A stretch of DNA of 64,000 nt from Verrucomicrobiota bacterium (lineage in GTDB: Bacteria > Verrucomicrobiota > Kiritimatiellia > JAAZAB01), in NCBI GenBank assembly GCA_018898455.1, contig JAHIJO010000005.1, forward strand, positions 6,591 through 70,590. The letters run 5' to 3'. Positions within the stretch are counted from its first letter, which is position 1, and every line of letters begins with the position of its first letter. This document shows positions 4,240 through 25,060 of this stretch, in pieces. Both the position numbers and the translations under genes were made by a program. Under the pieces are notes generated by a model. It saw only the letters and a program-made list of their open reading frames with translations, did not search any database and was not told the DNA's origin.

Positions 4240-4242
4240 TAT

Positions 4243-4315
4243 CTTCGGCTCGGCCAGAGGCCTAGCCCTACCCGAGGTGACATTCCGAAGGGAGGGCGGG
4301 GCATTTGGCCGAGCC
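4243..4315. promoter_or_regulatory. Structured intergenic element: long-range stem GGCTCGGCCA (4247-4256) / TGGCCGAGCC (4306-4315) enclosing a ~50-nt GC-rich region with further internal pairing (CTTCGG/CCGAAG)
   Basis: Inverted repeats read directly from the sequence between the flavoprotein stop (4239) and the NYN-like gene start (4341). No T-tract follows, so it is not a canonical terminator. Confidence 0.3.
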
Positions 4316-4340
4316 ATCCGCGTATGTCACGAAAATCTCC

Positions 4341-11897: not shown

Positions 11898-13811
11898 TTA
11901 CCGGTTTTTTTTCGCCAGCCAGCTTGTCATCTGCTTCCGGTAATCATCAAGATCCAAGCTGAGGCTTTCCGCCTTGACCGCCTCCATGGCCGGTTCGGCT
12001 TCCCCGGCCTCCGGTTGTTCTTTCGGAAGGGACCCCGGCGGCAGGGAAATTTCCGCGACATTTTCCAGGGCGGCAGTGCGCAGCACTTCTTCGAGGGTCG
12101 TGATGCCCCGCTCAACCTTCTCGATGCCGTCGTCCAGCATGCTGACCATGCCGTCCTTGCGCGCCTGCGCCCGCAAGGCGGCGGTTGTTTGTCCGGCGGC
12201 AATTATATCGGCCAGATCCAAAGTCACGGGCATCAATTCGAAAACGGCAATGCGCCCCACGTAGCCGGTATCGCGGCACTTGGAACATCCTTTCCCCCTC
12301 CACATCTTGCCGGGTAGCGACAAACCGGAGGCCGTCAGCCGCTGGCGCAGGCCGTCGGGAACGGCAAAAGGTTCCCGGCATTCCTCACAGATCCGCCGCA
12401 CCAGGCGCTGGGCCATCGCGCCCACCAGCGAGGAGGATACCAGGAACGCCTCGATGTTCATATTGATGAGCCGGGTAACTGCGCCGGGCGCGTCATTGGT
12501 ATGAATTGTCGAAAACACCAGGTGCCCCGTCAGGGCTGCGCGCACCGACAATTGCGCGGTTTCCGGATCCCGCACTTCGCCCACCATGATGACATCGGGG
12601 TCCTGTCTCAGGATGCTGCGGAGCGCGGACGCGAAGGTCAATCCCGCTTTTTCATTCACCTGGATTTGAGTAACCAGGTCCATGCGGCGTTCCACCGGGT
12701 CCTCGATGGTGATGATGTTGCGTTCCGGGGATTTTGCCTTGGACAGCATGGCATAGAGCGTGGTGGACTTGCCGCTGCCGGTCGGTCCGGTGACCACAAC
12801 CATACCATAGGGACGTCGAATCATCCGTTCGACCTGGGGTAGAAGTCTGTCGGAAATGCCCATGCTTTCCAGGGGAATCGCCATGGCCCGCGTGTCGAAA
12901 AGGCGGATCGCCATGTTCTCGCCGTTGGTGGTGGGCATGCTGGAAACACGGGCCTCCACGGTGCGCTTGTCTATGGTGATCTGGAAATGACCGTCCTGCG
13001 GAATGCGGCTTTCCGCGATGTCCATGCTGCTGATGACCTTGATGCGGGAAATGATAAAGGGATGGAGATATTTCGGCGGCGGCGGAATATCATAGAGGAC
13101 GCCGTCAATACGGAAACGGACCTTTAATTGTCCCTCGCCAGGATCGATGTGAATATCGCTGGCCCGGTCGCGCACGGCCTGGGCCACGATCATATCCACC
13201 AGGCGGCTGACCGGCGATTTACTGCTCTGCAGGATGCTTTCCTGAGATTTCACCGCCATCGTTCCCTGTAAGGAATCCTCACCCATTTGATCCAGCAATT
13301 CCTTGAATTCCTCGTGCCCGGAATACACCCGGTTGATCATTTCATGAATATCCTTCCGGGCAGCCAGGCACGGTTCAATCGTGAACTTGCCCAGTGCCGT
13401 CGCCAGCCGATCGAGAACGGTGATGTCGCTGGGATCGGCCAACGCAACCGTGAGTGAGTCGCCGATGGCAAACAAGGGGAATACTTCCAGTTCACGCGCC
13501 AGCTTCTCGTCAATCAGGGAAACCACGGCTTGATTATAAATGTAGGTTTCGAGATCGACGAAAGGCACGCCGAAAATGCCGGCCAGTTCCTCGTAAGCCG
13601 TCTGCTTGGACAATAGATCCAGATTGACAAGAACCTCGACCAGAAGTTCGCGGGTTTCCCTGCTGACCGCCATGGCCTTTTTCAGGGTCTCACTCGTCAA
13701 AAGCCCCTTGGCCATGAGGCGCTTGGCCAAGTCCTCGTTCGTCTGCGCCAACATCTGCTGGCTGAGATCCTGATTCATATCAATCCTCGCTGACACATCC
13801 CGCCCGTTCAA
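11898..13811 (-). CDS. gspE: Type II secretion / type IV pilus assembly ATPase GspE/PilB family with N-terminal GSPII_E_N domain
   Basis: Walker A VVVTGPTGSGKSTT, Asp/His boxes, C-terminal CxxC..CxxC zinc motif (GCSKCRDTGY..). N-terminal T2SSE_N-like domain. Has an Ala/Glu-rich C-terminal extension. Confidence 0.9.
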   Translation of the reverse strand: MNGRDVSARIDMNQDLSQQMLAQTNEDLAKRLMAKGLLTSETLKKAMAVSRETRELLVEVLVNLDLLSKQTAYEELAGIFGVPFVDLETYIYNQAVVSLIDEKLARELEVFPLFAIGDSLTVALADPSDITVLDRLATALGKFTIEPCLAARKDIHEMINRVYSGHEEFKELLDQMGEDSLQGTMAVKSQESILQSSKSPVSRLVDMIVAQAVRDRASDIHIDPGEGQLKVRFRIDGVLYDIPPPPKYLHPFIISRIKVISSMDIAESRIPQDGHFQITIDKRTVEARVSSMPTTNGENMAIRLFDTRAMAIPLESMGISDRLLPQVERMIRRPYGMVVVTGPTGSGKSTTLYAMLSKAKSPERNIITIEDPVERRMDLVTQIQVNEKAGLTFASALRSILRQDPDVIMVGEVRDPETAQLSVRAALTGHLVFSTIHTNDAPGAVTRLINMNIEAFLVSSSLVGAMAQRLVRRICEECREPFAVPDGLRQRLTASGLSLPGKMWRGKGCSKCRDTGYVGRIAVFELMPVTLDLADIIAAGQTTAALRAQARKDGMVSMLDDGIEKVERGITTLEEVLRTAALENVAEISLPPGSLPKEQPEAGEAEPAMEAVKAESLSLDLDDYRKQMTSWLAKKNR

Positions 13812-14191
13812 CCGGCGCTTTCGGCAAGAAGCTTGGCGATGGTTTCCAGCATCTCCTGGGGTTTAAAAGGCTTGGTCATGTAAGCATCGCCGCCCACGCT
13901 CATCCCGGTTTCCCGATCGCTCTGCTGGGACCGGGCCGTCAGCATGACGATGGGAATATTCCGATGTTTTTCATCAAATTTCAACAACCGGGCCACCTTG
14001 TAGCCATCCATCTTGGGCAACATGATATCGAGAATTATCAGGTCCGGATTCCGGTTCCGGGCCAAATCCAGCCCGGCGACACCATCCTCCGCCTCAATGA
14101 CTTCATATCCATTGGCTTCCAGGCGCATGCGAAGCGCCATGCGAAATTCCGGCTCGTCTTCGATTAGAAGTATTTTTTTTGCGGGTGCCAT
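13808..14191 (-). CDS. Single-domain response regulator (CheY-like receiver)
   Basis: KKILLIEDEPEF..DLIILDIMLPKMDGY..MLTA..K motifs of REC domains. ATG 14191 with GGGGAG RBS. Confidence 0.8.
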   Translation of the reverse strand: MAPAKKILLIEDEPEFRMALRMRLEANGYEVIEAEDGVAGLDLARNRNPDLIILDIMLPKMDGYKVARLLKFDEKHRNIPIVMLTARSQQSDRETGMSVGGDAYMTKPFKPQEMLETIAKLLAESAG

Positions 14192-14231
14192 ATTATTTTT
14201 CTCCCCGGTTTTGAATTCAGGGTAATCTTTA

Positions 14232-15767
14232 TCAGCGGCCTTTTTCCTCGATGGGTTCCAAATAGGTTTTCGGTTCAAGGTTCAGCAGAATTCGGATCTT
14301 ATCCAGCAGGTCGTTGGGCGTAAACGGCTTGGCCAGAACTTCATCCGCCCCATCCCGTACCACTTCGGTCAGCGAATGGACATCTCCTGATATGATCAAA
14401 ACCTTGCTGTTATGTTGGCGCGATTGCTGCCGCAAGGAAAGCAACACCTGTTCCCCGCCCACTTCCGCCAGATGCATATCGAGAATGATAAGATTCGGCT
14501 TGAATTCTCCAGCGATGATCAGCGAATCGAGTCCGCTCAACGTTGACTTGACCTCCAGCTTCAGGTCGGAATACCGAAGCACTTTTTCAATCATCCGGAC
14601 AACAAGTTCCTCGTCGTCAACAATGAGGATCCGGGAGGGCAGTTCCTTATCGTACACCGGGAGGGTGAATGAAAAGCAACTCCCCTTGCCAATCGTGCTG
14701 TCAACCGAAATACAGCCGCCATTGAGTTCCACCAGGCTCTTGGCAATTTTCAATCCAAGACCGGTACCCTTGGTGCCCGGACCGTCCTTGCGATCGATCT
14801 GGACGAAGGCCTCAAATATCTTTTCCAATGAATCCCGGGGAATTCCGGGTCCCGTATCTTCAACATCAATGCGCAGGAAGCGGCCTTCCTCTTTGGTTCG
14901 AATGCGAAGGGTTCCCTTCTCCGGCGTAAATTTATGGGCGTTCCCGATCAGGTTCGTCAGAATATTATGGACGCTTGTCACGTCGCAATGCGCCATTGGC
15001 AGATTATCAGGAACATCCAGCACCAGCGTCTGTTTTTTGGTTTGGCAGACGGGGGTAAAATCATTGCGAAACTGCATCAGCAAGGACGTCAAATCCGCTT
15101 TGGTTCTGTGCAATTCCGCCTTACCGGCTTCAATGCGGGCCAAGTCCAGTATCCGGCTGATCAGGTCGGTGAGCTTGTCGCAATTGCGAAGAGCCGCATC
15201 GAGGCATTTGCACTGTTTTTCATTCAGCGGACCTACGGTCTCGTCCCGGACAAGCGACACAAATTCCCGGATGATCGCCAACGGGGTCCGGATCTCATGC
15301 GAAACTTCAGCTACAAATTGGGATTTGGTCTCGTTTAATTCGCGCAAACGTTTCAAGGCCTCCTGGCTGTTCTTCTTCGCGCTATGGCGCTCAATGGCAT
15401 AGCGCAGGGCATGAACCAGCGCGCCAATATCCCCCTGCCCCTTGATCAAGTAATCCTGCGCGCCTTCCTTGACCAGTTGGGAGGCCAGGGCTTCATCCCC
15501 GACACACGTTAAAACGATAATCGGGATTTCGGGGAATCGCCCGTATACTTTCCTGAATGTTTCCAGTCCACGGCTGTCCGGTAGAATCAGGTCCAGCATG
15601 ACCACCTCAGCCTGGCTTTCGGCCAGCCATGAGAGCGCCGCATCGAGTCGGCCAACCGACGCAATATTGAAATTGGTATCTTTGGTATGAAGCAGTTGTT
15701 CCTTGATCAATACCACTTCATCCGGATTATCCTCAACCAGCAGAATATTGATGCGTTTGGATTTCAT
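14232..15767 (-). CDS. Hybrid sensor histidine kinase with N- and C-terminal receiver domains (REC-HisKA-HATPase-REC)
   Basis: N-terminal REC (INILLVEDNPDE..MLDLILPD), HisKA H-box (VSHEIRTPL), N/G1/G2 boxes (NLIGNAHKFT, DTGPGIP, GTGLGL), C-terminal REC (RILIVDDEELV..DMHL). Confidence 0.85.
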   Translation of the reverse strand: MKSKRINILLVEDNPDEVVLIKEQLLHTKDTNFNIASVGRLDAALSWLAESQAEVVMLDLILPDSRGLETFRKVYGRFPEIPIIVLTCVGDEALASQLVKEGAQDYLIKGQGDIGALVHALRYAIERHSAKKNSQEALKRLRELNETKSQFVAEVSHEIRTPLAIIREFVSLVRDETVGPLNEKQCKCLDAALRNCDKLTDLISRILDLARIEAGKAELHRTKADLTSLLMQFRNDFTPVCQTKKQTLVLDVPDNLPMAHCDVTSVHNILTNLIGNAHKFTPEKGTLRIRTKEEGRFLRIDVEDTGPGIPRDSLEKIFEAFVQIDRKDGPGTKGTGLGLKIAKSLVELNGGCISVDSTIGKGSCFSFTLPVYDKELPSRILIVDDEELVVRMIEKVLRYSDLKLEVKSTLSGLDSLIIAGEFKPNLIILDMHLAEVGGEQVLLSLRQQSRQHNSKVLIISGDVHSLTEVVRDGADEVLAKPFTPNDLLDKIRILLNLEPKTYLEPIEEKGR

Positions 15768-15968
15768 ATCTTGATGTACCTTCAAACCAGTAAACTGATC
15801 CGGACGATATCAACCGCCTTTACCCCGATCGAGACAACACGCTGGGGACTCAACCATACCGCAACCCAACGTTAGAAATGCCTTAAAATAACCCCATTAC
15901 ACAAAGGGTGTCAAGGCGAATCACGACGGTCGTAATGAGTCCCTATCCCATGGATTGCTGATAGCCGC

Positions 15969-16040: not shown

Positions 16041-16511
16041 ATGAATAAAGTTCTATTGATAGCCATTACATGCCTGATGATTGCCCAGATGCCAATGCTG
16101 GCCGGCGACGGCGGCAAGACAACGGTTCAAGCCATAGTGGGCACCTCGCCGCGCGCGGAGAACACCTCGAAAGTCATGATCCAGACCGCTGTGGTTCCCG
16201 CGAAGTCGGAAGACGACAAGAAACCGATCGCTCCACCGCCCCCCCTGCCCGCCGCGGACTGGGTGGCGGCCTGGCAGGCCGCCAAGGAAACATGCCCGGA
16301 AGCCTCCGGGATGACAATCTATTATAACGACCGCTCCGGCCCCACCCCGGAGTCGCTGAAAGTATTCCCATGCGTAGATATGAAGGCCCGCGGGGAACTG
16401 CTGGTCATCACCATCAAACAGCCGGGGCAAAAAGAGGAATCGGTGGCCATTGTCCGCGCCAGCGACGTGGTCCGGATTGATGTCAGTAAACCCGCCACCG
16501 CCAACCCCTGA
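16041..16511 (+). CDS. Small secreted hypothetical protein (signal peptide, Pro/Ala-rich linker)
   Basis: ATG 16041 with GGAGGG RBS. MNKVLLIAITCLMIAQMPMLA signal peptide. No family recognised. Confidence 0.55.
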   Translation: MNKVLLIAITCLMIAQMPMLAGDGGKTTVQAIVGTSPRAENTSKVMIQTAVVPAKSEDDKKPIAPPPPLPAADWVAAWQAAKETCPEASGMTIYYNDRSGPTPESLKVFPCVDMKARGELLVITIKQPGQKEESVAIVRASDVVRIDVSKPATANP

Positions 16512-16547
16512 ACTTTTTTCATGGGCCGCTCCAACGCCATCAGCCCC

Positions 16548-16586
16548 AATTAAATTAGCCCCCCGCAGCGGGAGACTAATTTAATT
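16548..16586 (+). terminator. AT-rich perfect 11-bp inverted repeat AATTAAATTAG ... CTAATTTAATT with 17-nt GC-rich loop; possible terminator/regulatory hairpin
   Basis: Arms 16548-16558 and 16576-16586 are exact reverse complements. Follows the stop at 16511 and precedes the operator/promoter of the next operon. Confidence 0.3.
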
Positions 16587-16588
16587 TA

Positions 16589-16626
16589 AACTTTGTGTTG
16601 CAAAGTTCTTTGCGGAGTGTTATTCT
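16589..16626 (+). promoter_or_regulatory. Promoter TTGCAA-17-TATTCT overlapped by a dyad-symmetric operator AACTTTG-N5-CAAAGTTCTTTGCG (site 1)
   Basis: -35 at 16598-16603, -10 at 16621-16626. Three CAAAG/CTTTG half-sites in alternating orientation (16591-95, 16601-05, 16609-13). The same 26-mer architecture recurs at 17679-17711. Confidence 0.45.
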
Positions 16627-16648
16627 TCGTTCAGAAACAAGGAGAACT

Positions 16649-17287
16649 ATGCTCGCACATCATGTCCATGATGCTTTAACCCAGGTCAAACGGCTCCAGG
16701 CCCTCATCCTTGAGAAGCGTTTATTCCGCGGTTACTCGGGGATTGCCCGCATGGCCGGCGGTCTCGTTGCGCTTGGCGGAATGTTCATCATGGCATCCCC
16801 GCTCTTCCCTTCCGTGCTCTCCGCGCATCTTCTGGGTTGGACGGCGGTGCTGATCATTGCCCTGGCCATTAATTATGGCACGCTGCTGTTCTGGTTTTCG
16901 ACCATGCCCGCCGCCCGCCGTTCGCTCCGTGAGCTGGTGCCCGCTTGCGATGCCGTTCCGGCCCTGGCGGTCGGCGCCGGACTCAGTCTGGCGCTGATAA
17001 TGCATGGCGAATACGATCTATTGTTTGGAACTTGGATGTGCCTGTATGGTTTGGTGCACATGCCTTACCGCAACAGCCTGCCCTTTGCCAACTACCTGGT
17101 CGGCATCTTTTATCTGGCGTGCGGCGCGATCATGCTGGTCTGGCCGGGAGTAGCGTTCACCAATCCGTACCCGATGGGCCTCGTTTTCGGCGCCGGCGAG
17201 CTGGGCGGAGGTTTTGTGTTGTGCCGGTTGAATCAAGAAACTGTTCTGGAACAGGAGGAAGAAACATCCCATGAAAACAACGACTGA
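16649..17287 (+). CDS. Integral membrane protein, hypothetical (5-6 TM)
   Basis: ATG 16649 with AAGGAG RBS. Several hydrophobic helices. The 3' end overlaps the start of the downstream ArsR-like gene, implying translational coupling. Confidence 0.6.
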   Translation: MLAHHVHDALTQVKRLQALILEKRLFRGYSGIARMAGGLVALGGMFIMASPLFPSVLSAHLLGWTAVLIIALAINYGTLLFWFSTMPAARRSLRELVPACDAVPALAVGAGLSLALIMHGEYDLLFGTWMCLYGLVHMPYRNSLPFANYLVGIFYLACGAIMLVWPGVAFTNPYPMGLVFGAGELGGGFVLCRLNQETVLEQEEETSHENND

Positions 17288-17648
17288 TAGTCCGTTCGAT
17301 GCGCTGGAGAAAATATTCCATGAACCTAACCGCCTGGCCATCATGTCCGCCTTATGCGCCGCGGATGGCGGAGTCCCCTTCACCGACCTGAAGACATCCT
17401 GTCGGCTGACCGACGGCAATCTGAGCCGCCATCTTAAAGTGCTTGAGGAAACTGGCGTGATCCGCGTGGAAAAGTCATTCGTCAAACTCCGTCCACGGAC
17501 GACAATCCACCTGACCAAAACCGGCTTCCAGCGGTTTAACGAATACCTGGCCGCGCTGACTGAAGTGTTGGAACAAGCCCGCCAGGCCACAGGCACCGAG
17601 CGAAGCAAATCGCGTCTGCCAGCTTTTGGGAAACTAGCGCCGGCGTAA
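17271..17648 (+). CDS. ArsR/SmtB-type winged-helix transcriptional regulator
   Basis: HEPNRLAIMSALCA....FTDLKTSCRLTDGNLSRHLKVLEETGVIRVEK matches the ArsR-family HTH pattern (xRLxIxxxL ... LSxHLKxLxxAGLV). Confidence 0.7.
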   Translation: MKTTTDSPFDALEKIFHEPNRLAIMSALCAADGGVPFTDLKTSCRLTDGNLSRHLKVLEETGVIRVEKSFVKLRPRTTIHLTKTGFQRFNEYLAALTEVLEQARQATGTERSKSRLPAFGKLAPA

Positions 17649-17678
17649 TTGAGTTAACACCGTATTTTTTTATTGCTC

Positions 17679-17711
17679 AACTTTGCCAAACAAAGTTCTT
17701 TGCGTTAGATT
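17679..17711 (+). promoter_or_regulatory. Promoter TTGCCA-17-TAGATT overlapped by the same operator AACTTTG-N5-CAAAGTTCTTTGCG (site 2); predicted leaderless start
   Basis: -35 at 17683-88, -10 at 17706-11. The predicted transcription start coincides with ATG 17719, which has no RBS. The operator copy is identical in spacing to site 1. Confidence 0.45.
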
Positions 17712-17718
17712 GAATCAC

Positions 17719-18921
17719 ATGAAAACAGTTCAAACCTTACAAGTGCTATCCGCAACACTCCTGGCGATCGGACTGGTGGTCACCCTACCCCTGCTTGGAA
17801 TCATGGCGACCGGCCTGCCGATCGGACACTATCTCGAATTTCCCCCTCACACCCATTACGTGGAACACGCCGGTTTTTCATGGTCCGTATTCGCCGGACT
17901 GGCCGCGTTTATTCTAATTGTCATCCTGCCTTTCATTATCCGGATCCTGTGCGCCAACCGGATGACGAAGACGAAAATGAAGCCGCTTATGGAGTCAACC
18001 GTCGCCCCGGCAGAGCCCCCTTTGCTGGGAAGCTACGGAGGGCCATGGTGGGGCGGATACAATTGCAATCAAAACGCCCGCCGTTTTCCAGTTTGGGGCT
18101 GGATTGGCATCGCCGGGGGAATCGGGGCCTGGATTCTCGCCTGGTCCCGTTTTGATTGGTTCGCACCCTGGCAGGCCTTCACGTTCAGTCCGTTGTGGTT
18201 CAGCTATATCGTCATCGTCAACGCCCTGACTCACCGGCGCACCGGCCAATGCATGCTGACCCAGAGACCCGTTTTCCTGCTGATGCTCTTTGTGTTCAGC
18301 GCCGCCTTCTGGTGGTTATTCGAATACCTGAACCGATTCGTCCAGAACTGGTACTACCTCGGGATCGGTTCCCTGACCCCCTTGGAATATTTTCTGTTTG
18401 CCACCCTCCCGTTTTCCACCGTGCTCCCGGCGGTAATGGGCACCTTCCAGCTCCTGGCCACCTACCCGCGACTTTCCAACGGACTGACCGGAATTTTTGT
18501 CATGCCCCACATCCAATCGCGCTTCGGTGCTCTCATTGTTCTTACATTGTCGGCGGGCGGATTGGCAGGTATTGGCTTGTGGCCGGACTACCTGTTTCCA
18601 TTACTCTGGCTGGCGCCGCTGGGAATACTGGCATCCCTCCAAACACTGACCGGACGGACGTCACTGTTTGCCGACCTGGTCCGCGGCGACTGGCGGCGGA
18701 TCGTCCTGCTGGCGCTGGCCGCGCTGATTTGCGGCTTCTTCTGGGAGATGTGGAATTTTTACAGCCTCGCCAAGTGGGTCTATGCCGTGCCATTCGTTGA
18801 CCGCTTCCACATTTTTGAAATGCCGGTACTCGGCTATGCCGGCTATCTACTCTTCGGCCTGGAATGCGCGCTGATTGCGGATTTACTGTGCGGTCGGCGA
18901 CAGATCGAGGAAAAACCTTGA
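17719..18921 (+). CDS. Large polytopic membrane protein, hypothetical (about 10 TM, Trp/aromatic-rich)
   Basis: First ATG at 17719; the 17683 start is TTG inside the operator. Highly hydrophobic. No family recognised. Stop overlaps the downstream start (TTGA). Confidence 0.6.
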   Translation: MKTVQTLQVLSATLLAIGLVVTLPLLGIMATGLPIGHYLEFPPHTHYVEHAGFSWSVFAGLAAFILIVILPFIIRILCANRMTKTKMKPLMESTVAPAEPPLLGSYGGPWWGGYNCNQNARRFPVWGWIGIAGGIGAWILAWSRFDWFAPWQAFTFSPLWFSYIVIVNALTHRRTGQCMLTQRPVFLLMLFVFSAAFWWLFEYLNRFVQNWYYLGIGSLTPLEYFLFATLPFSTVLPAVMGTFQLLATYPRLSNGLTGIFVMPHIQSRFGALIVLTLSAGGLAGIGLWPDYLFPLLWLAPLGILASLQTLTGRTSLFADLVRGDWRRIVLLALAALICGFFWEMWNFYSLAKWVYAVPFVDRFHIFEMPVLGYAGYLLFGLECALIADLLCGRRQIEEKP

Positions 18922-19481
18922 AAACATTTTACCACAGGTTACTGCAATTATGGCAGACAACACCGGAATGGAAACGTTCGGCGCTGGTCACGGCATTTCT
19001 TCTTCTGGCGTTGATACCGTGGACGGACTGCATGCCGGCGTTCTGGCGGACGGCATTCGTAATGCCGACCGCCTGGATCGCATCCTGGTTTATGTCGGCC
19101 AACTGTGTTCCCACACCACAAGGGTGCCTGCTTATCACGCCGATTGCGCCTGTTCATGTAACCCTCGCCTGCTGTGCGGCCAGATTTTTTGTCCTCCTGG
19201 CTTCCATGCTCGTCGGGCAGATTGTGGTTTCACGACGCCCTAAAATCCCCGGATTGGCGATTGCCTTGTTGATCGCCTACATGGTTGCGATTGCGGCCAA
19301 CTCGGCACGAGTTGTTTTCGCGTGGTTTGCCGGTCGGTGGGCCGAGCGCATCTTACCGTCCCATTTCGCCGCGGCAGTGCATATGGGCGCAGGCATAATG
19401 GTGTTTCTCGTGTTCCTGGTTGTACCGTGGGTCTTGTTCATGAACATAATTGATGACAAACGAAAGGAGAACTGGCGATGA
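18918..19481 (+). CDS. Minimal exosortase/archaeosortase-family protein candidate (~187 aa, 5-6 TM)
   Basis: TTG 18918 with GAGGAAAAAC RBS (alternative ATG 18864 overlaps the upstream gene). Motif LACCAAR (19164-19184) resembles the exosortase active-site EACSGLR (Cys...Arg). Later ANSARVV matches the conserved N-x-x-R motif. All sit in predicted TM context. Confidence 0.55.
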   Translation: MKTFYHRLLQLWQTTPEWKRSALVTAFLLLALIPWTDCMPAFWRTAFVMPTAWIASWFMSANCVPTPQGCLLITPIAPVHVTLACCAARFFVLLASMLVGQIVVSRRPKIPGLAIALLIAYMVAIAANSARVVFAWFAGRWAERILPSHFAAAVHMGAGIMVFLVFLVVPWVLFMNIIDDKRKENWR

Positions 19482-22411
19482 ACGCAACAGCAGATCGTTC
19501 ACAACTATTCGGTGACATATTGCGGAAACCAGCATTCATTCTGTGGACGATGATCCTGCCGCAGCTTCTTCTGCTGGCAATCAATATCAGCTCATGGAAC
19601 CTGGTTTCGGGCGAGATGTCCGCAATTCAGAAGGGTAATGCTTTCATGATTGGCGCTTTCGAAGTTGCCCTCCTGGGCGCTGGCGCCATTGCGTTTACTG
19701 GTTTGCAGATCCTGAAAAAAGGGGTGGGACGGATTCTTTCTGTGGGCATAATCCTTGCACATATCGGTTATCTCTGGACATTCACCTCTGCCATGCGTCA
19801 ACTGGTGCCCACCAGTGTTGCGGATTGGATTCTGCCGGGCGGTGAACTCCTTTATTATCAATATGCACTCATCATGCCGGCCCTGTTTTACGCAGGGTTC
19901 CGCCTGGTATCATTCGAGATACCGCTACGGCAAATCGCCGACTTTGGTGTCTCGCTGGGTGTGCTCCTCCTTCTGCCGATTGCCTGGTTTGTGGTCTTTT
20001 CACTTGCGCGCTTCTTGCCGTGGGGTTTCGAACCGCCAGTGATTATCGGGATTGTGTTCTTCGTGGCTTCGACAGTCATCGCCCTGCTGGCATTCCTGCG
20101 AGTGCTCCTGATTGTCTATGCCTGGGTGAACCGGGTAGTACACGGACGCCTTGTGCTCCTGGTGGTAACCGGCATTGCCGCGCCAATCGGCGGACTGTTG
20201 TTGAACATCGCGTATCCATTTCCTTATGATTTCCAGGACCCGTGGGTTTATATCCTGACAATACTTAACGGCCTGATCCTGTTGATTCCCACCCCGAAGA
20301 CCACGTCCCTGCGAGTAGGCATCTGGTACTTGCGCGCGCTGGTGTTTCCATTCTCGCTCTATTTCTTCGTGGTGTTCCTCCCGTTCCTGCCATTGTCACT
20401 CCTGGCCATGCTTGCCTGCGGCGCCGGTTGCCTGATCCTCGCCCCGACGCTCCTCTTCGTGATACACACGCGATGCTTACTAGATGAAGGCCGCGCCCTG
20501 ATCCCGCAGAAAGGCTGGACGGTTGTGTTGGCGTTGCTGGTCGCCGGCGTTTTGACCATTCCGGCCGGTTACACCGTCCGCGCACTCTATGACCGGCAGG
20601 CATTGATGTCGGCCGTGGATGCCGTGTACAGCCGCGATGCAGACGTCACCCGCGTCAGCTTCAATCCGCACTCCGCCTTGCGCGCCGTGGAACGTCTGCG
20701 TAACCAGAAGAACGGTATCCAGGTCCCGTTCATCTCGGACTACTACAATTGGCTGGTTTTCAATGGTTTGGTCCTGCCGGACTACAAGATGGATGCAATC
20801 GAACTGGTCCTCTCCGGAGCCAAACCTGCAAAACCCAAAATTAACAGTCATTTCAGCTTTGCCGAAATTTTTGCTACCCGAGGCAGGAGCCGTCCAGCAT
20901 GGCGCTCGACACCGGCGCCGCCACGGCGTGTTGAATTGACTACGGTGAATACAAACACTGAACGGGCCGGCGACGTGCTTAAGACCCGGGTCCAACTGCA
21001 AATGCGGAATGGAACCGACAATGCGGCCGAGTTCGTTACGGACATCACGGTGCCGCCCGGAGTTATGGTCACGGGCTATTGGTTGAACATGGAAACCAAC
21101 CGCGTGCCCGGCCGCATCTTCGAGAAAAAAACGGCGATGTGGGTCTATCACATGATCCGCGACACGACACGCCGGGATCCCGGTTTGCTGGTGTATCAGG
21201 ACGAACACCGTCTCAAGCTTAGCGTGTTTCCATTCCGGCAAAACGAGGAACGGATCACCGAAATCGAGTTCACATTCCCTGCAATCATGGATCCGGAGAT
21301 CGTGATCGGGACCCGGCCATTGCGCCTGAACAGCGATGCCCAACTGCGCGCCGAACCGATCCGATTCAAGCATGCCGGCAGTGACGCCCTGGCCGTTCCG
21401 CGCGCGGTGTTGAATACATTTCCCACGGTTCGCCGAAAACCCTACTTGCATTTCATCCTGGACTGTTCGGCAACCGCCGAAAAAGAAGCGCACCAGTTTG
21501 CCGAACGCATCCGGCGTGAAGCGGCCCGTTTCCCGGAAGCCGGTGGCTGTCTTATCTCCGCGGCTAACTATGAAGTTACCGACCTGACCGATCAGTTTAT
21601 CCCCTTGGCCGATGCGGCGGAACTCGTGACCGCATCGCGTGGAAAGATGCTCCCGTTCCGGGGCGCACTTTGTCCGGAATATGCGATCAAACGCGGACTG
21701 CCGGATTTCAGATTCGGATTGGCATTCGACAAAAGCGGCGAATTAATGGTCCCAATCTTTGTTGTGATCAAGGCCGACGCCACCACGCCGGTGATGCCGA
21801 CCGACCTTGCCGTTTTTGCCGATGCGGTTCCGGATGTGCCGGCATGGTACATCACGCGCTTGGACGGCCGCCTCGACGCCTGCGCATTTGATGGCAGAAC
21901 AAACACCATTGTCGAGCGACCGTCACTGCCTGAACCGGCAGTTGTGTTTCGGCACGGCGACGCCATCGTGACACATTGCGCCAAGACGGACGCGATTATT
22001 TCGTTCCGTCCAACTGCCGCGCCGATAATGTATTTCGATCCTGCTACTCGCCAGTTCATTGAGATCACGAATATTATCAAGTCGGCACACGACAGCGGAT
22101 ATGGCGCGGCCATATCACTCTGGTTGGACTGGCGCGATACGGTCATTCGGCCATCAACCCTAAATGCACGGCTTCCGGCAATTGTCAAGGCCAGCCGGGA
22201 GTCGAATGTCATCGTACCGTTGACTTCCTACATCGTGGTCGAGAATTCGGCGCAGTGGAAAATGCTTGTGATCAAGGAAAAACAGTCGTTGGCGGCGGAC
22301 CATGCGCTCGCGTTCGACGAATTCAAGGAGTCGCCGGAGCCCGCGTCGTGGCTCTTGCTGCCAATCGCCTGCGCCTTGCTGTGGTGGCGAAGGACAAGAC
22401 AATACGGATAA
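19478..22411 (+). CDS. 977-aa protein: N-terminal ~460-aa multipass membrane domain, large soluble middle region (VIT-like?), C-terminal PEP-CTERM-type sorting signal
   Basis: ATG overlaps the upstream stop (ATGA), AAAGGAGAA RBS. At least 10 hydrophobic helices in the first 460 aa. C-terminus ..SPEPASWLLLPIACALLWWRRTRQYG (22331-22408) is PEP motif, then TM helix, then Arg cluster. This is the PEP-CTERM signature recognised by exosortases. Confidence 0.7.
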   Translation: MNATADRSQLFGDILRKPAFILWTMILPQLLLLAINISSWNLVSGEMSAIQKGNAFMIGAFEVALLGAGAIAFTGLQILKKGVGRILSVGIILAHIGYLWTFTSAMRQLVPTSVADWILPGGELLYYQYALIMPALFYAGFRLVSFEIPLRQIADFGVSLGVLLLLPIAWFVVFSLARFLPWGFEPPVIIGIVFFVASTVIALLAFLRVLLIVYAWVNRVVHGRLVLLVVTGIAAPIGGLLLNIAYPFPYDFQDPWVYILTILNGLILLIPTPKTTSLRVGIWYLRALVFPFSLYFFVVFLPFLPLSLLAMLACGAGCLILAPTLLFVIHTRCLLDEGRALIPQKGWTVVLALLVAGVLTIPAGYTVRALYDRQALMSAVDAVYSRDADVTRVSFNPHSALRAVERLRNQKNGIQVPFISDYYNWLVFNGLVLPDYKMDAIELVLSGAKPAKPKINSHFSFAEIFATRGRSRPAWRSTPAPPRRVELTTVNTNTERAGDVLKTRVQLQMRNGTDNAAEFVTDITVPPGVMVTGYWLNMETNRVPGRIFEKKTAMWVYHMIRDTTRRDPGLLVYQDEHRLKLSVFPFRQNEERITEIEFTFPAIMDPEIVIGTRPLRLNSDAQLRAEPIRFKHAGSDALAVPRAVLNTFPTVRRKPYLHFILDCSATAEKEAHQFAERIRREAARFPEAGGCLISAANYEVTDLTDQFIPLADAAELVTASRGKMLPFRGALCPEYAIKRGLPDFRFGLAFDKSGELMVPIFVVIKADATTPVMPTDLAVFADAVPDVPAWYITRLDGRLDACAFDGRTNTIVERPSLPEPAVVFRHGDAIVTHCAKTDAIISFRPTAAPIMYFDPATRQFIEITNIIKSAHDSGYGAAISLWLDWRDTVIRPSTLNARLPAIVKASRESNVIVPLTSYIVVENSAQWKMLVIKEKQSLAADHALAFDEFKESPEPASWLLLPIACALLWWRRTRQYG

Positions 22412-22523
22412 TGGAGGTATTAAATTACTTCATCCAAACTGAAAATTAATATTCAACTAACTCTTGGGTCGAATTGTCCATTTCATGCAGCTGAACCAAG
22501 ACAAAATTAAGACAAGGGAAACT

Positions 22524-23315
22524 ATGCCAACTGAAACACTATTTAAGAACTGCATTGAAAAAGCAACACTCGGCGCCATTCTGATATTAATCCTGTTGTG
22601 TTGTTCGGCTTGTGAAAGGCTTTTCGATGCCTTTAATAGTCCGGCAGAACAGGCTTACTTGATGGGATTACGCGCCCAGAAAGGTGAAGCCAGGGACACT
22701 GACCCCCTGGAATGTTTCAATCGAGCAATTAGCTTGGATCCGCATCGATCCCGATATTACAGCGCACGTGCCGAATTGTATTTTTGGAAAAGGCAATTTG
22801 CAGAAGCGCTCCGGGATCTGAATGAAGCTGTCTCGCTCTCGCCTAATTGGTACTATCTTTATTTCGAGCGCGGCAACTGTAAATGTCAATTGAATGACTT
22901 CATATCAGCACTGGCAGATTTTGATACAGCGATCAAGGCACAGCCTGATAACGCTCAGTACTACAGTGGCGTCGCTCTGGCAAATCTTGGAATGAATAGT
23001 CCCGATAAAGCGCTGGAGGCAATCGAAAAAACAATAGCTTTAGACCCTATGTGCCTGCGCTGGCACTTCTATAGAGGTGTCATTTTAAGCCGCATGGGTA
23101 GACACAAAGACGCAGTATCGGAATTCGCTAAAACGGAAGCCTTCACGATTATGCTGAAAGACAACAAGCAAAAGCAGGTTTTTTTCGACGGAGAAATTGA
23201 ATATACCAAGGCGCGCGCTCTGTCACCGCAACAACTGCTGAGTACCTGGCCTTATGCTCCTTCCGAAGAGCGCGCTGAGCAGTACTTTCTCAAGCGAGGC
23301 TCAAACGAGGAATAA
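22524..23315 (+). CDS. Tetratricopeptide-repeat protein, probable lipoprotein
   Basis: ATG 22524 with AAGGGAA RBS. N-terminal hydrophobic segment ending ..LLCCSAC. At least 4 TPR-like units (A..LDP...Y..RA.....A..D..A). Confidence 0.7.
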   Translation: MPTETLFKNCIEKATLGAILILILLCCSACERLFDAFNSPAEQAYLMGLRAQKGEARDTDPLECFNRAISLDPHRSRYYSARAELYFWKRQFAEALRDLNEAVSLSPNWYYLYFERGNCKCQLNDFISALADFDTAIKAQPDNAQYYSGVALANLGMNSPDKALEAIEKTIALDPMCLRWHFYRGVILSRMGRHKDAVSEFAKTEAFTIMLKDNKQKQVFFDGEIEYTKARALSPQQLLSTWPYAPSEERAEQYFLKRGSNEE

Positions 23316-23449: not shown

Positions 23450-25060
23450 ATGAATGCACCATCACATCATCCGTATTCACGGGCGGGAATCTGTGTTTGG
23501 ATCAATGGGCTGATCGTTCTATTCCTCGCCGTCTATTTCCTGATCCTGCCGGGGTTCATTTTGGTACACGACCTGATGGACCCCAACCTCCGCCAGCCGG
23601 GTGGTATCCCCCGGATGGCCTGGCGGGTGCATGCCAGCTTGACCCCGCACTACGAACACTGGGCGCGGGCCCGCGTCGCCTCCGGCAGAGCCGGACATCT
23701 CCAGCTAAATGACGTGCCCAGCACGGAATGGCCGATGTTCGGATCGGTTTTCTATCTTGCCGCCACAGAAAATCTTCAACGCGCGTGGGACAAAGGTGAG
23801 CATGGTTCCCGTATTGCTCCGAAAGTGTATGCCCGGGCCGCAATTGAAGCGGCGGCGGAACTCATCCTGGACCCCATCCACCACACGTGGGTTCGCACGC
23901 ATTGGGGACCGAACTACCTGCACCATGAAAATGTGTTCTTCCGGGCCATGATTATCCAAGGCCTCACCTGCCGCCAAAACCTGATCGGTGACGGCAAATA
24001 CCTGGACATCCTACGCGACCAGGTGGAAACACTTGCGGACGATCTCGACCGTTCGCCATACGGACTGCTCCACGATTATCCCGGAGAATGCTACCCAGTC
24101 GATGTATTGGCGGCGATCACCATGATTCGCCGGGCGGATCCTGTGCTGGGCACGGATCATTCGGCATTTGCCGGCCGGGCCAGGCGCGGATTCCAGGGAG
24201 CACGGCTTGATGCGCGCGGATTGCCACCCTACGTGGCCGAGCCTACTACCGGCGGACATGACGGTATCTCACGGGGTATCGGCAATTCATACATTTGTAT
24301 CTACGCCCCGGAACTTTATCCGGATTTGGCCCGAGTCTGGTATGACGCTTATCAACGCTACTTCTGGCAGGAGCGAATAGGCGCGGCCGGGTTTCGCGAA
24401 TATCCCAACGATCTTCCCGGCTACGAATTATTTTTCGATGTGGATTCCGGCCCTGTCATTTTCGGATTCAGCCCGGCGGGGAACGCTTATGGCTTGGCGG
24501 CGGCGCGGGTCAACGGCCGTTTCGATCAGGCGTGGCCGCTGGCCTCACAGGTACTGGCGGCTTGCTGGCATCTGCCCAACGGCAGTCTGCTGGGACCGCG
24601 GATGTTGTCCAATGCCGCGCACGCCCCCTACCTGGGTGAAGCCAATATGCTTTTCCTGCTGACACAGAACCCGATCCCAGCCCAACCGATCCGCCTTGGC
24701 GGGCACATGCCGCCGCTGGTGTATGTTGGATTCATGTTTTATTTCGGATTGGGGACACTAGTGATTGGCTTGACAACCCGTAAACTTTTCGCCTGGAAAA
24801 ACACAGGTGAAATCGTTCACGTGCCTTTTGCTCGGATTCAACTCAGTCTATGGCTGCTCTTAATGCTTGCCGGGATCATCCTGATGATATGCATCAGCCC
24901 CGGCATCGGCATGTTACCCATTATTACCGCCCAGCTTCTGCCGCGCTTCGGTAAGGTCAAAAGGAATAGCTCACGAAATGGTCGGATGGCTTCCGTTGTA
25001 GCGGCCGTTCGACAGAACGGCAATCCACGGTTCTTCCCGCTAGGAGCGGGACAAACTTAA
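23450..25060 (+). CDS. Hypothetical membrane protein (N-terminal TM, large extracytoplasmic domain, C-terminal TM bundle)
   Basis: Single long ORF with hydrophobic segments at both ends. No family recognised. Confidence 0.55.
   Translation: MNAPSHHPYSRAGICVWINGLIVLFLAVYFLILPGFILVHDLMDPNLRQPGGIPRMAWRVHASLTPHYEHWARARVASGRAGHLQLNDVPSTEWPMFGSVFYLAATENLQRAWDKGEHGSRIAPKVYARAAIEAAAELILDPIHHTWVRTHWGPNYLHHENVFFRAMIIQGLTCRQNLIGDGKYLDILRDQVETLADDLDRSPYGLLHDYPGECYPVDVLAAITMIRRADPVLGTDHSAFAGRARRGFQGARLDARGLPPYVAEPTTGGHDGISRGIGNSYICIYAPELYPDLARVWYDAYQRYFWQERIGAAGFREYPNDLPGYELFFDVDSGPVIFGFSPAGNAYGLAAARVNGRFDQAWPLASQVLAACWHLPNGSLLGPRMLSNAAHAPYLGEANMLFLLTQNPIPAQPIRLGGHMPPLVYVGFMFYFGLGTLVIGLTTRKLFAWKNTGEIVHVPFARIQLSLWLLLMLAGIILMICISPGIGMLPIITAQLLPRFGKVKRNSSRNGRMASVVAAVRQNGNPRFFPLGAGQT

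What the first reader, a model, noticed from the sequence alone, without database searches (positions are those of the whole stretch)
16589..16626. Repeated dyad operator AACTTTG-N5-CAAAGTTCTTTGCG embedded between -35 and -10 of two promoters (second copy 17679-17711)
Seen directly in the sequence: both sites contain three CAAAG/CTTTG half-sites in alternating orientation with identical spacing. Each spans the -35 hexamer and 17-nt spacer of a sigma70-like promoter (TTGCAA-17-TATTCT and TTGCCA-17-TAGATT). One promoter drives the operon ending in the ArsR-like regulator, which suggests autoregulation. The other drives the exosortase/PEP-CTERM operon and predicts a leaderless mRNA, since ATG 17719 sits ~7 nt after the -10 with no RBS. 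This is a compact, testable regulon.
Basis: seen in the sequence. Interest (0 to 1): 0.6.

Follow-up and report, generated by a model that had tools for sequence, protein, structure and literature searches.

The report
Conserved operator pair of membrane-linked repressor
The two repeated 26-base sites are real and are almost certainly the binding sites of the small DNA-binding protein encoded between them; the same site-plus-regulator module recurs in hundreds of bacteria from many phyla, usually in front of membrane-protein and prenyl-lipid genes, and does not appear to have been described.

Summary
AACTTTG-N5-CAAAGTTCTTTGCG occurs exactly twice in the 64-kb window (16589-16614, 17679-17704), with none expected by chance.

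A weight matrix built only from other genomes scores these two sites 39 and 29 bits. The next best position scores 9.8, which is noise.

The sites flank a translationally coupled pair: an unannotated six-helix membrane protein (16649-17287) and a 125-aa HTH_34/ArsR-like winged-helix protein (17271-17648).

In 80 related genome loci from at least six phyla, the 17-bp core ACTTTGnnnnnCAAAGT occurs 115 times against about 1 expected. 103 of these lie at the same two places: upstream of the membrane-protein gene, and just after the regulator gene.

Site 1 is a conserved autoregulated promoter (TTGCAA-17-TAnnnT).

Site 2 is less settled. It is absent or degenerate in four of five close relatives. 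The proposed leaderless promoter is not conserved, because the closest relative has a GGAG ribosome-binding site before the same ATG.

The gene controlled at site 2 is an unannotated 400-aa membrane protein. The exosortase and MSEP-CTERM genes ride behind it.

Elsewhere the same operator precedes UppS, HMG-CoA synthase, IspH, DXS, CreD and DUF4153 genes.

The parts
16548..16586 (.). 19-nt-arm inverted repeat (AATTAAATTAGCCCCCCGC / GCGGGAGACTAATTTAATT) directly upstream of operator 1. Probably a terminator or insulator hairpin after the upstream gene.
   Evidence: I2. A similar hairpin sits at the same place in L082. Its function was not tested.
16589..16614 (+). Operator 1. Core palindrome ACTTTGTGTTGCAAAGT (16590-16606) plus an adjacent third half-site TCTTTGCG (16607-16614).
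   Evidence: 39.0 bits with a matrix trained on other genomes. Conserved at the same place in 56 of 80 related loci and in all five close relatives.
16598..16626 (+). Promoter 1: -35 TTGCAA (16598-16603, the right half of the palindrome), 17-nt spacer, -10 TATTCT (16621-16626).
   Evidence: TTGCAA is almost invariant. A TAnnnT box lies 17-18 nt downstream in 16 of 31 non-alphaproteobacterial site-1 sequences, against scattered hits at other offsets. In close relatives the -10 boxes are TAGACT, TAGTTT, TAGTCT, TATTTT and TACATT in the same register. The transcription start was not mapped.
16649..17287 (+). Gene for a 212-aa membrane protein with an N-terminal cytoplasmic helix and six transmembrane helices, no family assigned (called 'mem212' here). 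RBS AAGGAG at 16639-16644. Presumed sensor or partner of the regulator.
17271..17648 (+). Gene for a 125-aa winged-helix regulator (HTH_34, ArsR-like). It overlaps the upstream gene by 17 nt.
   Evidence: PF13601 E 4.3e-21; HTH_20 and HTH_5 also above cut-off. Below NCBI's ArsR/SmtB metalloregulator cut-off, 38.3 against 55. Nearest solved structure is 1ub9, PH1061. Recognition-helix motif LTDGNL[NS]RHL and two cysteines (C29, C44) are invariant in 29 homologues.
17665..17672 (+). Run of seven T followed by A, at -15..-8 from the core of operator 2. Conserved at site 2 across phyla; role unknown.
   Evidence: Profiles. No consistent hairpin precedes it.
17679..17704 (+). Operator 2. Core palindrome ACTTTGCCAAACAAAGT (17680-17696) plus third half-site TCTTTGCG (17697-17704).
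   Evidence: 29.2 bits. A core site lies just after the regulator gene in 47 of 80 loci. Present in L001, but degenerate or absent in L081-L084.
17683..17711 (+). Candidate promoter 2: -35 TTGCCA, 17-nt spacer, -10 TAGATT. It would start transcription at or next to the A of ATG 17719.
   Evidence: 9 of 12 consensus match. The same register gives TAAGAT in L012 and TATAAG / TAAAAG in L004 / L006, but GAAATG plus a GGAG RBS in L001. Not conserved and not mapped.
17719..18921 (+). Gene for a 400-aa polytopic membrane protein with no family assigned ('mem400'). It is the first gene after operator 2.
18918..19481 (+). Exosortase-family gene, weakly XrtK-like. The probable start is TTG 18918, overlapping the mem400 stop codon (TTGA) and preceded by GAGGA. 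The mechanical ORF starts at 18864.
   Evidence: TIGR04178 exosortase signature 28.4 against cut-off 23; XrtK 29.8 against cut-off 55. Sequence. The L084 counterpart is 181 aa with a 4-nt overlap.
19478..22411 (+). MSEP-CTERM sorting-domain protein with a VIT domain, 977 aa. Its start overlaps the exosortase stop codon (ATGA).
   Evidence: TIGR04286 E 1.1e-129, 434 bits against cut-off 150. C-terminus is ...KESPEPASWLLLPIACALLWWRRTRQYG.
22464..23315 (+). TPR-repeat protein, 283 aa, in the same gene string.
23450..25060 (+). Gene for a 536-aa protein with no family assigned ('unk536'). It is often the direct neighbour of mem400 in relatives.
   Evidence: Adjacent to mem400 or to the regulator in L001, L002, L003, L008, L035, L083 and L084.

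Best explanation
The two 26-bp sites are operators for the HTH_34 (ArsR-like) winged-helix protein encoded between them.

Binding (inferred). A dimer would recognise the 17-bp palindrome ACTTTGnnnnnCAAAGT, whose CTTTG and CAAAG centres lie 10 bp apart. The directly adjacent third half-site probably recruits a second dimer through one subunit.

Operator 1. It covers the -35 (TTGCAA is the right half of the palindrome) and the spacer of the promoter of the mem212-regulator operon. The protein would therefore repress its own synthesis. The position is shown; the repression is inferred from it.

Operator 2. It lies 31 nt after the regulator's stop codon and 15 nt before the mem400 start codon. It would keep the mem400 / exosortase / MSEP-CTERM / TPR / unk536 gene string off. 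Two routes are possible, and they are not exclusive:
- occluding an internal, possibly leaderless, promoter (TTGCCA-17-TAGATT);
- blocking RNA polymerase that reads through from promoter 1.

Signal input (inferred from conserved pairing only). The translationally coupled six-helix membrane protein is the likely input device, holding or releasing the repressor in response to a membrane or lipid signal. Two invariant cysteines in the regulator are an alternative input.
For: - Exact repeat, unique in the window.
- Cross-validated matrix scores of 39 and 29 bits against a 9.8 background.
- In 80 loci retrieved only through the regulator protein, the core with at most 1 mismatch occurs 115 times in 728.5 kb, against 0-4 (mean about 0.9) in shuffles. 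56 lie upstream of the mem212 gene and 47 just after the regulator gene.
- In an independent metagenome scan for the site-2 pattern, a regulator gene lies directly upstream in 71 of the 74 contigs with room for one.
- Neighbouring genes vary while the regulator-operator pairing persists.
- The promoter-1 geometry is conserved: TTGCAA-17-TAnnnT in all close relatives. Alphaproteobacteria use a different but equally occlusive layout, TTGCnT-16-TAT|ACTTTG....
- mem212 and the regulator overlap by 17 nt here and in L081 and L084, and by 20 nt in L082 and L083.
- Where operator 2 is missing (L084), mem400 is fused into the regulator operon. The same regulator would still control it.
Against: - No binding, transcription-start or expression data exist. 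Everything rests on comparative sequence evidence.
- The loci were found with peptide patterns that include the recognition helix (LTDGNL[NS]RH), so a conserved operator is partly expected by construction.
- Operator 2 is not conserved among four of five close relatives, so its importance here is uncertain.
- Promoter 2 scores 9 of 12 but is not conserved. Promoter 1 scores only 8 of 12 and was not picked up by the consensus scan.
- The role of mem212 is inferred from synteny only.
- Whether the protein represses or activates at operator 2 is not shown.
Confidence: 0.78

Rival explanations
1. Operator 2 is not part of a separate leaderless promoter. It is an internal operator on a transcript that starts at promoter 1. 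Bound repressor stops read-through into mem400, and the conserved T-run 9-15 nt upstream helps release the stalled polymerase. This refines the best explanation rather than replacing it.
For: - In Alphaproteobacteria the palindrome's central ATG is the start codon of the downstream uppS-type gene, with GGAG 8 nt upstream. This leaves no room for a promoter.
- In L001, L024 and others an RBS follows the operator directly, with no -10 box.
- In L084 mem400 is part of the regulator operon.
- The T-run at -15..-9 is conserved in both alphaproteobacterial and other loci.
- It is not preceded by a consistent hairpin, so it is not a classic terminator.
Against: - In this window a 9-of-12 promoter sits in exactly the right register for a start at the A of ATG, and there is no Shine-Dalgarno sequence.
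- The expected stall position of RNA polymerase, about 14 nt before the block, fits the T-run only approximately.
- There are no experimental data.
Confidence: 0.45
2. The palindromes act in RNA, as hairpins that attenuate transcription or mask translation starts. They are not protein-binding DNA sites.
For: - The sites can fold: -11 kcal/mol for 16585-16630 (z -2.85) and -6.3 for 17675-17710.
- In Alphaproteobacteria the hairpin would enclose the start codon.
Against: - Sequence, not just pairing, is conserved across phyla. There is hardly any covariation.
- Operator 1 lies upstream of the predicted transcription start, overlapping the -35.
- Site 2 folding is not better than shuffles (z -0.95 and -1.4).
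- No Rfam family matches.
- The third half-site has no pairing partner.
Confidence: 0.03
3. The sites are bound by a different factor, for example the response regulator of the hybrid kinase / response-regulator pair at 13808-15785.
For: A two-component pair lies 0.8 kb upstream on the other strand.
Against: That pair is not conserved next to the motif in related loci. The HTH_34 gene is next to the motif in 103 of 115 genome occurrences and in 71 of 74 metagenome occurrences.
Confidence: 0.04
4. The repeat is a chance or recent local duplication, or a remnant of a small mobile repeat, with no regulatory role.
For: There are only two copies in the window, 1,090 bp apart.
Against: - The flanks and the central 5 nt differ between the copies.
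- The same motif is found at the same relative positions in at least six phyla.
- The window sites score 39 and 29 bits with a matrix trained elsewhere.
Confidence: 0.01

Closest known systems
ArsR/SmtB-family repressors (SmtB, CzrA, ArsR; PDB 6j0e was the only characterised hit)
   Same: A small winged-helix protein. It has inverted-repeat operators overlapping its own promoter, shows negative autoregulation, and may use more than one dimer per operator. Pfam HTH_5 and HTH_20 are matched above their cut-offs.
   Different: - The best family is HTH_34, not HTH_5.
- It falls below NCBI's metalloregulator cut-off (38.3 against 55).
- The PDB match to ArsR is weak (E 5e-4).
- It has an obligate, translationally coupled six-helix membrane partner.
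- No metal-resistance genes lie behind its operators.
PH1061 of Pyrococcus horikoshii (PDB 1ub9), a structural-genomics winged-helix protein
   Same: It is the closest solved relative by sequence profile (E 2.4e-13, residues 14-101).
   Different: The deposit records no function, operator or partner for it. It gives a fold, not a mechanism.
BlaI/MecI repressors with the BlaR1/MecR1 membrane sensors (from general knowledge)
   Same: The logic is similar: a winged-helix repressor is co-transcribed with a membrane sensor, and dyad operators control both the regulator operon and a target gene.
   Different: No homology was detected; there is no Penicillinase_R or BlaR1 family hit. mem212 has no protease or penicillin-binding domain. 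The gene order and targets differ.
SigM with its membrane anti-sigma complex YhdL-YhdK in Bacillus subtilis, which responds to undecaprenyl-phosphate levels (PMC11081497)
   Same: It is a possible analogue in logic. A transcription factor is held by a membrane partner and controls lipid-carrier-related genes. That paper predicts that analogous pathways are common in bacteria.
   Different: It is a sigma/anti-sigma system, unrelated in sequence. The link of the present module to undecaprenyl phosphate is only inferred from the genes found behind its operators.
Roadblock repression by operators inside transcription units (for example LacI at O2, CodY, CcpA; from general knowledge)
   Same: Operator 2 sits between the regulator gene and the next gene, often with no promoter of its own.
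   Different: The fixed T-run upstream of the operator, and an operator centred on the start codon in Alphaproteobacteria, are not standard features of the known cases. The mechanism was not tested.

Membership tests
Pfam HTH_34 (PF13601) winged-helix family | Match to the family model above its gathering score | tested here: met
   75.3 bits against cut-off 27, E 4.3e-21, covering 79 of 80 model positions.
ArsR/SmtB metalloregulators | Match to the ArsR HTH model (PF01022) | tested here: met
   25.8 bits against cut-off 22. This is weaker than the matches to HTH_34 and HTH_20.
ArsR/SmtB metalloregulators | NCBIfam NF033788 (metalloregulator ArsR/SmtB subfamily) above its cut-off | tested here: not met
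   38.3 bits against cut-off 55. All named equivalogs fall far below their cut-offs.
ArsR/SmtB metalloregulators | Known metal-binding motif (alpha-3 CxC, or the alpha-5 His/Asp/Glu site), with metal-resistance genes as targets | tested here: inconclusive
   No CxC is present. Two invariant but separated cysteines, C29 and C44, are seen in the alignment. The genes behind the operators are membrane and prenyl-lipid genes, not metal genes. Metal binding cannot be tested here.
Transcription-factor operator | Conserved at the same position relative to orthologous genes (phylogenetic footprint), and far more frequent than chance | tested here: met
   115 core hits against about 0.9 expected; 103 lie at the two syntenic positions. 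Cross-validated matrix scores 39 and 29 bits.
Transcription-factor operator | Specific binding by the proposed protein | not testable with these tools
   Needs EMSA, footprinting or DAP-seq.
Sigma-70-type promoter (site 1) | -35 and -10 hexamers with a 16-18 nt spacer, conserved in register among relatives | tested here: met
   TTGCAA-17-TATTCT. A TAnnnT box lies in the same register in 16 of 31 sites and in all five close relatives. The transcription start was not mapped.
Sigma-70-type promoter (site 2) | -35 and -10 hexamers with a 16-18 nt spacer, conserved in register among relatives | tested here: inconclusive
   TTGCCA-17-TAGATT scores 9 of 12. The register is shared only by L012, and loosely by L004 and L006. 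It is absent from the closest relative L001 and impossible in Alphaproteobacteria.
Leaderless mRNA | Transcription starts at, or within a few nt of, the start codon, and there is no Shine-Dalgarno sequence | not testable with these tools
   No SD precedes ATG 17719, and the -10 ends 7 nt upstream. Against this, L001 has GGAG 4 nt before the same ATG. Needs 5'-RACE or dRNA-seq.
XrtK / MSEP-CTERM exosortase system | MSEP-CTERM protein (TIGR04286) above its cut-off, with a C-terminal sorting signal | tested here: met
   434 bits against cut-off 150. The C-terminus reads SPEP, then a hydrophobic helix, then RRTR.
XrtK / MSEP-CTERM exosortase system | Adjacent exosortase K (TIGR04287) above its cut-off | tested here: not met
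   29.8 bits against cut-off 55. Only the general exosortase/archaeosortase signature passes, 28.4 against 23. An exosortase gene is adjacent, but it is not a clear XrtK.

The most novel reading that the evidence does not exclude
The mem212 / HTH_34 pair may be a cross-phylum, membrane-coupled sensor-repressor of prenyl-lipid supply, acting on undecaprenyl-type carrier lipids and their precursors.

Its operator sits directly in front of UppS-type cis-prenyltransferases, HMG-CoA synthase, IspH and DXS in separate lineages. It also precedes mem400, which in one lineage is fused to a cis-prenyltransferase.

This would make it a bacterial counterpart, in logic, of Insig/SCAP-SREBP or of SigM-YhdLK. 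In this organism it would tie the exosortase / MSEP-CTERM surface system to lipid-carrier status.

A second new element would be repressor-dependent termination at the T-run-plus-operator placed just after the regulator gene.
Probability: 0.3. Interest if true: 0.85.

Novelty: new member of a known kind. Interest (0 to 1): 0.6.

Why it matters
How bacteria set the supply of isoprenoid precursors and of the scarce carrier lipid undecaprenyl phosphate at the level of transcription is largely unknown. Outside Bacillus SigM, the authors of PMC11081497 only predict that analogous pathways exist.

This module supplies three concrete things:
- a defined DNA motif;
- a defined small regulator;
- a defined membrane partner.

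All three are present in at least 595 species genomes, including cultivable Bradyrhizobium, Aureimonas and Cerasicoccus. The hypothesis can therefore be tested directly.

Even if the lipid link fails, the result assigns a first regulatory context to several large 'hypothetical' membrane-protein families:
- mem212;
- mem400, with more than 4,400 members;
- DUF4153;
- CreD.

It also gives a candidate regulator for an exosortase / MSEP-CTERM system.

Tried and rejected
- **RNA element.** Rfam finds nothing real in 16300-17900 (one E 0.086 microRNA hit on the upstream hairpin). Site 2 folding is not better than shuffles.
- **Classic intrinsic terminator before operator 2.** Folding the 52 nt that end in the T-run, in about 50 loci, shows no consistent hairpin. 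The consensus scan finds no terminator there.
- **More operators in the window.** None scores above noise.
- **Literature.** There are no papers for HTH_34 / PF13601, MSEP-CTERM / XrtK, the motif strings, or an ArsR-type regulator of uppS / ispH / dxs. The library lacks most subscription journals, so this is absence of evidence only.
- **Conservation of promoter 2.** It fails in most relatives.
- **An exclusively isoprenoid regulon.** This is weakened by the metagenome sample. There, CreD (21-22 of about 58 contigs with a scoreable downstream gene) and small unknown membrane proteins dominate.
- **Longer mem400-family proteins as further fusions.** P0211, P0224, P0226 and P0227 show no extra Pfam domain.
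- **Caveat on my ORF calls.** In GC-rich loci they include spurious antisense ORFs (cluster c3). Downstream genes were therefore re-scored by tblastn.

Full report
**1.

The window reads AACTTTGTGTTGCAAAGTTCTTTGCG at 16589-16614 and AACTTTGCCAAACAAAGTTCTTTGCG at 17679-17704. Allowing three mismatches, these are the only two matches on either strand of the 64-kb window. 100 dinucleotide-preserving shuffles gave none.

The short 12-mer alone is not unusual: 8 matches with two mismatches against 5.2 expected. The signal therefore lies in the full architecture.

That architecture is a 17-bp palindrome ACTTTG-N5-CAAAGT, followed without a gap by a third half-site (T)CTTTG(CG).

- TTGCAA 16598-16603, 17 nt, then TATTCT 16621-16626.
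- TTGCCA 17683-17688, 17 nt, then TAGATT 17706-17711.
- ATG 17719 lies 7 nt after the second -10, with no Shine-Dalgarno sequence.

The consensus scan reports the second promoter at 9 of 12. It does not report the first, which scores 8 of 12.

**2. The genes around the sites**

Between the sites lie two overlapping genes.

- **16649-17287** encodes a 212-aa membrane protein with no Pfam or NCBIfam family. I call it mem212. All its homologues start MIA(N/H)HIHDAL, which fixes the start codon at 16649, preceded by AAGGAG.
- **17271-17648** encodes a 125-aa winged-helix protein. Its best family is HTH_34 (PF13601, E 4.3e-21). It also passes the HTH_20 and ArsR HTH_5 cut-offs. It falls below NCBI's ArsR/SmtB metalloregulator cut-off, 38.3 against 55.

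After site 2 come five genes on the same strand:
- An unannotated 400-aa polytopic membrane protein (mem400, 17719-18921).
- An exosortase-family protein. It passes only the general signature and is below the XrtK cut-off. Its probable start is TTG 18918, overlapping the mem400 stop codon.
- A 977-aa MSEP-CTERM / VIT protein (434 bits against cut-off 150). Its C-terminus has SPEP, a hydrophobic helix, then RRTR.
- A TPR protein.
- An unannotated 536-aa protein (unk536).

The source is a metagenome-assembled 'Verrucomicrobia bacterium'.

**3. The motif travels with the regulator across phyla**

A scan of one genome per species with the regulator alignment found at least 595 relatives, and 80 loci were kept. 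The search was blind to DNA motifs. It did, however, use peptide patterns that include the recognition helix.

Key counts:
- In these 728.5 kb the core with at most one mismatch occurs 115 times, against 0-4 in shuffles.
- 56 hits lie 450-1,000 nt before the regulator start, which is upstream of the mem212 homologue.
- 47 hits lie within 250 nt after the regulator stop.
- Most of the other 12 lie directly before further genes.

The lineages include Verrucomicrobiota, Kiritimatiellia, Lentisphaerota/Victivallales, Calditrichota, Planctomycetota/Phycisphaerae, Binatia, Bdellovibrionales and many Alphaproteobacteria.

A weight matrix built from 49 of these sites, without the window, scores the window's sites 39.0 and 29.2 bits. 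The next best window position scores 9.8, inside the range of shuffle maxima.

An independent metagenome scan for 'T-run + core' returned mostly AT-rich contigs. Of the 74 contigs with room upstream, 71 encode a regulator homologue directly before the site.

The membrane-protein gene is the regulator's constant upstream neighbour (55 of 80 loci by my clustering). The other neighbours vary. This pairing is the main argument that the HTH_34 protein, and no other factor, reads the motif.

**4. Operator and promoter 1**

The consensus outside Alphaproteobacteria is a-ACTTTG-ya-T-TGCAAAGT-ac-TTTG. This is three 8-bp half-sites arranged forward, reverse, forward. The CTTTG and CAAAG centres of the palindrome lie 10 bp apart, as expected for a winged-helix dimer. 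The lone third half-site starts 17 bp after the first.

TTGCAA, the right half of the palindrome, is nearly invariant. A TAnnnT box lies 17-18 nt downstream in 16 of 31 sites, against scattered single hits at other offsets.

The five closest relatives (regulator 70-88% identical) all keep TTGCAA-17-TA(G/T/C)nnT followed by AAGGAG or AAGGAA and then ATG.

Alphaproteobacteria use a different layout that still covers the core promoter. It reads cTTGCnT, then a half-site ACTTTGCG in the spacer, then TAT|ACTTTGCAATACAAAGT. The extra half-site again lies 17 bp from the palindrome's first half-site.

Two unrelated layouts that both place the operator over the core promoter argue for repression and autoregulation.

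**5. Site 2 is real but its mode of action is open**

Across phyla a site follows the regulator gene. It is preceded at -15..-9 by a run of seven T. This holds in both the alphaproteobacterial and the other loci, none of which was selected for the T-run.

The T-run is not the tail of a classic terminator, because no consistent hairpin precedes it.

In Alphaproteobacteria the central ATG of the palindrome is the start codon of the downstream uppS-type gene (M-Q-S-...-HVGIIMDGNGR), with GGAG 8 nt upstream. No separate promoter can fit there.

Among the window's close relatives, site 2 varies:
- L001: intact.
- L081 and L083: degenerate.
- L082: absent.
- L084: replaced by direct coupling. The mem400 start lies 10 nt after the regulator stop, and exosortase-like, VIT/MSEP-like and unk536-like genes follow.

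The mem400 start (ATGAAAAC, MKT) is conserved, so ATG 17719 is right.

The -10 box TAGATT is not conserved, however. L001 has GAAATG and a GGAG ribosome-binding site 4 nt before the same ATG. Only L012 (TAAGAT), and loosely L004 and L006, share the register.

The leaderless promoter is therefore possible in this genome but not supported by conservation. An internal operator that blocks read-through from promoter 1 is at least as likely, and both may apply.

**6. What the regulator family controls**

I scored the first gene after each of the 59 non-autoregulatory operators in the 80 genome loci by tblastn:

| First gene after the operator | Count |
|---|---|
| UppS-type cis-prenyltransferase | 31 |
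| HMG-CoA synthase | 6 |
| IspH | 3 |
| B12 radical-SAM | 3 |
| mem400 | 2 |
| DXS | 1 |
| DUF4153 | 1 |
| CreD | 1 |
| P450 | 1 |
| Unnamed family | 1 |
| Unresolved | 9 |

These are not independent counts, because most UppS cases are Bradyrhizobium and its relatives. Even so, four different isoprenoid enzymes appear in separate lineages:
- Alphaproteobacteria and Calditrichota: UppS.
- PVC bacteria: HMG-CoA synthase.
- Planctomycetota: IspH.
- Bdellovibrionales: DXS.

In L029, mem400 is fused to a cis-prenyltransferase domain in a single 631-aa ORF.

The metagenome sample looks different. CreD has 21-22 cases, DUF4153 has 6, UppS 6-7, radical-SAM 3 and IspH 2. Several small unknown membrane proteins also appear. 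So do a weak Coq4-like family, DUF1361, and a DAGK/undecaprenol-kinase-family protein.

The safest summary is 'inner-membrane proteins and prenyl-lipid enzymes'. A specific role in prenyl-lipid homeostasis is an attractive reading but unproven. I give it a probability of about 0.3.

**7. The proteins**

- **Regulator.** In 29 homologues, LTDGNLxRHL, FHEPNRL, KPRTT and two cysteines (C29, C44) are invariant. The nearest solved structure is the uncharacterised PH1061 (1ub9, E 2.4e-13). ArsR (6j0e) matches only weakly.

**8. Most likely mechanism**

What the sequence and comparisons show directly:
- The sites exist and are unique in the window.
- They co-occur with the regulator gene across phyla.
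- Site 1 overlaps a conserved core promoter.
- mem212 and the regulator are translationally coupled.
- mem400 is either behind site 2 or inside the regulator operon.

What is inferred:
- The HTH_34 dimer binds the palindrome, and a second dimer uses the third half-site.
- It represses promoter 1, giving autoregulation.
- It blocks expression of the mem400 / exosortase / MSEP-CTERM / TPR / unk536 string, either at promoter 2 or as a roadblock.
- mem212 transmits a membrane signal by holding or releasing the repressor.

**9. Rivals**

- **RNA hairpin.** Unlikely. Sequence rather than pairing is conserved, site 1 lies upstream of its transcription start, there is no Rfam match, and site 2 folding is unremarkable.
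- **Another factor, such as the neighbouring two-component pair.** Unlikely, because only the HTH_34 gene co-varies with the motif.
- **Chance or a mobile repeat.** Excluded.

**10. Comparison with known systems, and novelty**

In kind this is an ArsR-like winged-helix repressor with dyad operators and autoregulation, which is a well-known design. In logic it also resembles BlaI/BlaR1 (a repressor with a co-transcribed membrane sensor). It may further resemble SigM-YhdLK, which responds to undecaprenyl phosphate (PMC11081497).

It fails the test for a bona fide ArsR/SmtB metalloregulator, and no metal genes lie behind its operators.

I found no description of this family, its operator or its regulon in the searchable literature. 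That library is incomplete.

I therefore file it as a new member of a known kind. A more novel reading remains open: a prenyl-lipid sensor-regulator, with a T-run-assisted roadblock.

Noticed in passing
L040-L079 (e.g. L055 5404-5420, L069 5393-5409): In Alphaproteobacteria the central ATG of the operator palindrome (ACTTTGCA-ATG-CAAAGT) is the start codon of a uppS-type cis-prenyltransferase gene (NF011412, 427 bits). GGAG lies 8 nt upstream. The operator therefore sits on the translation start.
   Followed up: partly
window 17665-17672; the same position in most site-2 copies of L001-L080: A run of seven T plus G/A lies at -15..-8 from the site-2 core and is conserved across phyla. It has no consistent hairpin before it. 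It may be a release site for polymerase stalled at the operator, an UP element, or a weak extra half-site.
   Followed up: partly
L029 5351-7246: A single 631-aa ORF fuses a mem400-family membrane domain (33% identical to the window protein) to a complete cis-prenyltransferase domain (PF01255, E 2e-77). In the same locus a second operator sits 30 nt before a DXS gene (2577-4358).
   Followed up: partly
window 17719-18921 (alignment A2): mem400 carries two similar invariant motifs, FWWFFEYLNRFVQNWYY (about residues 197-213) and FWEMWNY..LAKW.Y (about 341-355). Each is followed by a short strand in the model. This suggests an internal duplication in an unannotated family of more than 4,400 proteins.
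   Followed up: no
window 17271-17648 (alignment A1): Two cysteines (C29 in SALCAA and C44 just before the recognition helix) are invariant in all 29 aligned regulators. They could form a thiol or redox switch or a ligand site independent of the membrane partner.
   Followed up: no
window 16548-16586: A near-perfect 19-nt-arm hairpin flanked by A/T runs lies immediately upstream of operator 1. A similar hairpin is present in L082. It is probably a bidirectional terminator or insulator, and it explains the spurious Rfam mir-6644 hit (E 0.086).
   Followed up: no
window 13808-15785 (- strand): A hybrid histidine kinase / response regulator (517 aa) and a stand-alone receiver protein (156 aa) lie upstream on the opposite strand. 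They are not conserved next to the module in relatives.
   Followed up: no
L001 6681-8207, L083 4074-5597, L084 13096-14625 versus window 18918-23315: In L001 and L083 the unk536 homologue follows mem400 directly. In the window and L084 the exosortase and MSEP-CTERM genes (plus TPR in the window) lie between them. The exosortase pair behaves as an insertable cassette inside a conserved mem400-unk536 pair.
   Followed up: partly
L085-L164 (metagenome contigs, mostly AT-rich): In these contigs the same regulator and operator (ACTTTGAAATACAAAGTACTTT) most often precede creD (21-22 cases), DUF4153, or small unknown membrane proteins. One precedes a DAGK/undecaprenol-kinase-family gene (L103), and three precede a weak Coq4-like protein.
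   Followed up: partly
L053 6248-7774, L069 5296-7782: In Bradyrhizobium the operator-controlled uppS paralogue is followed by a B12 radical-SAM protein that scores as BchE-like (TIGR02026, 539 bits). In L069 the two are fused into one 828-aa ORF. This suggests an unknown prenyl-lipid modification pathway.
   Followed up: no
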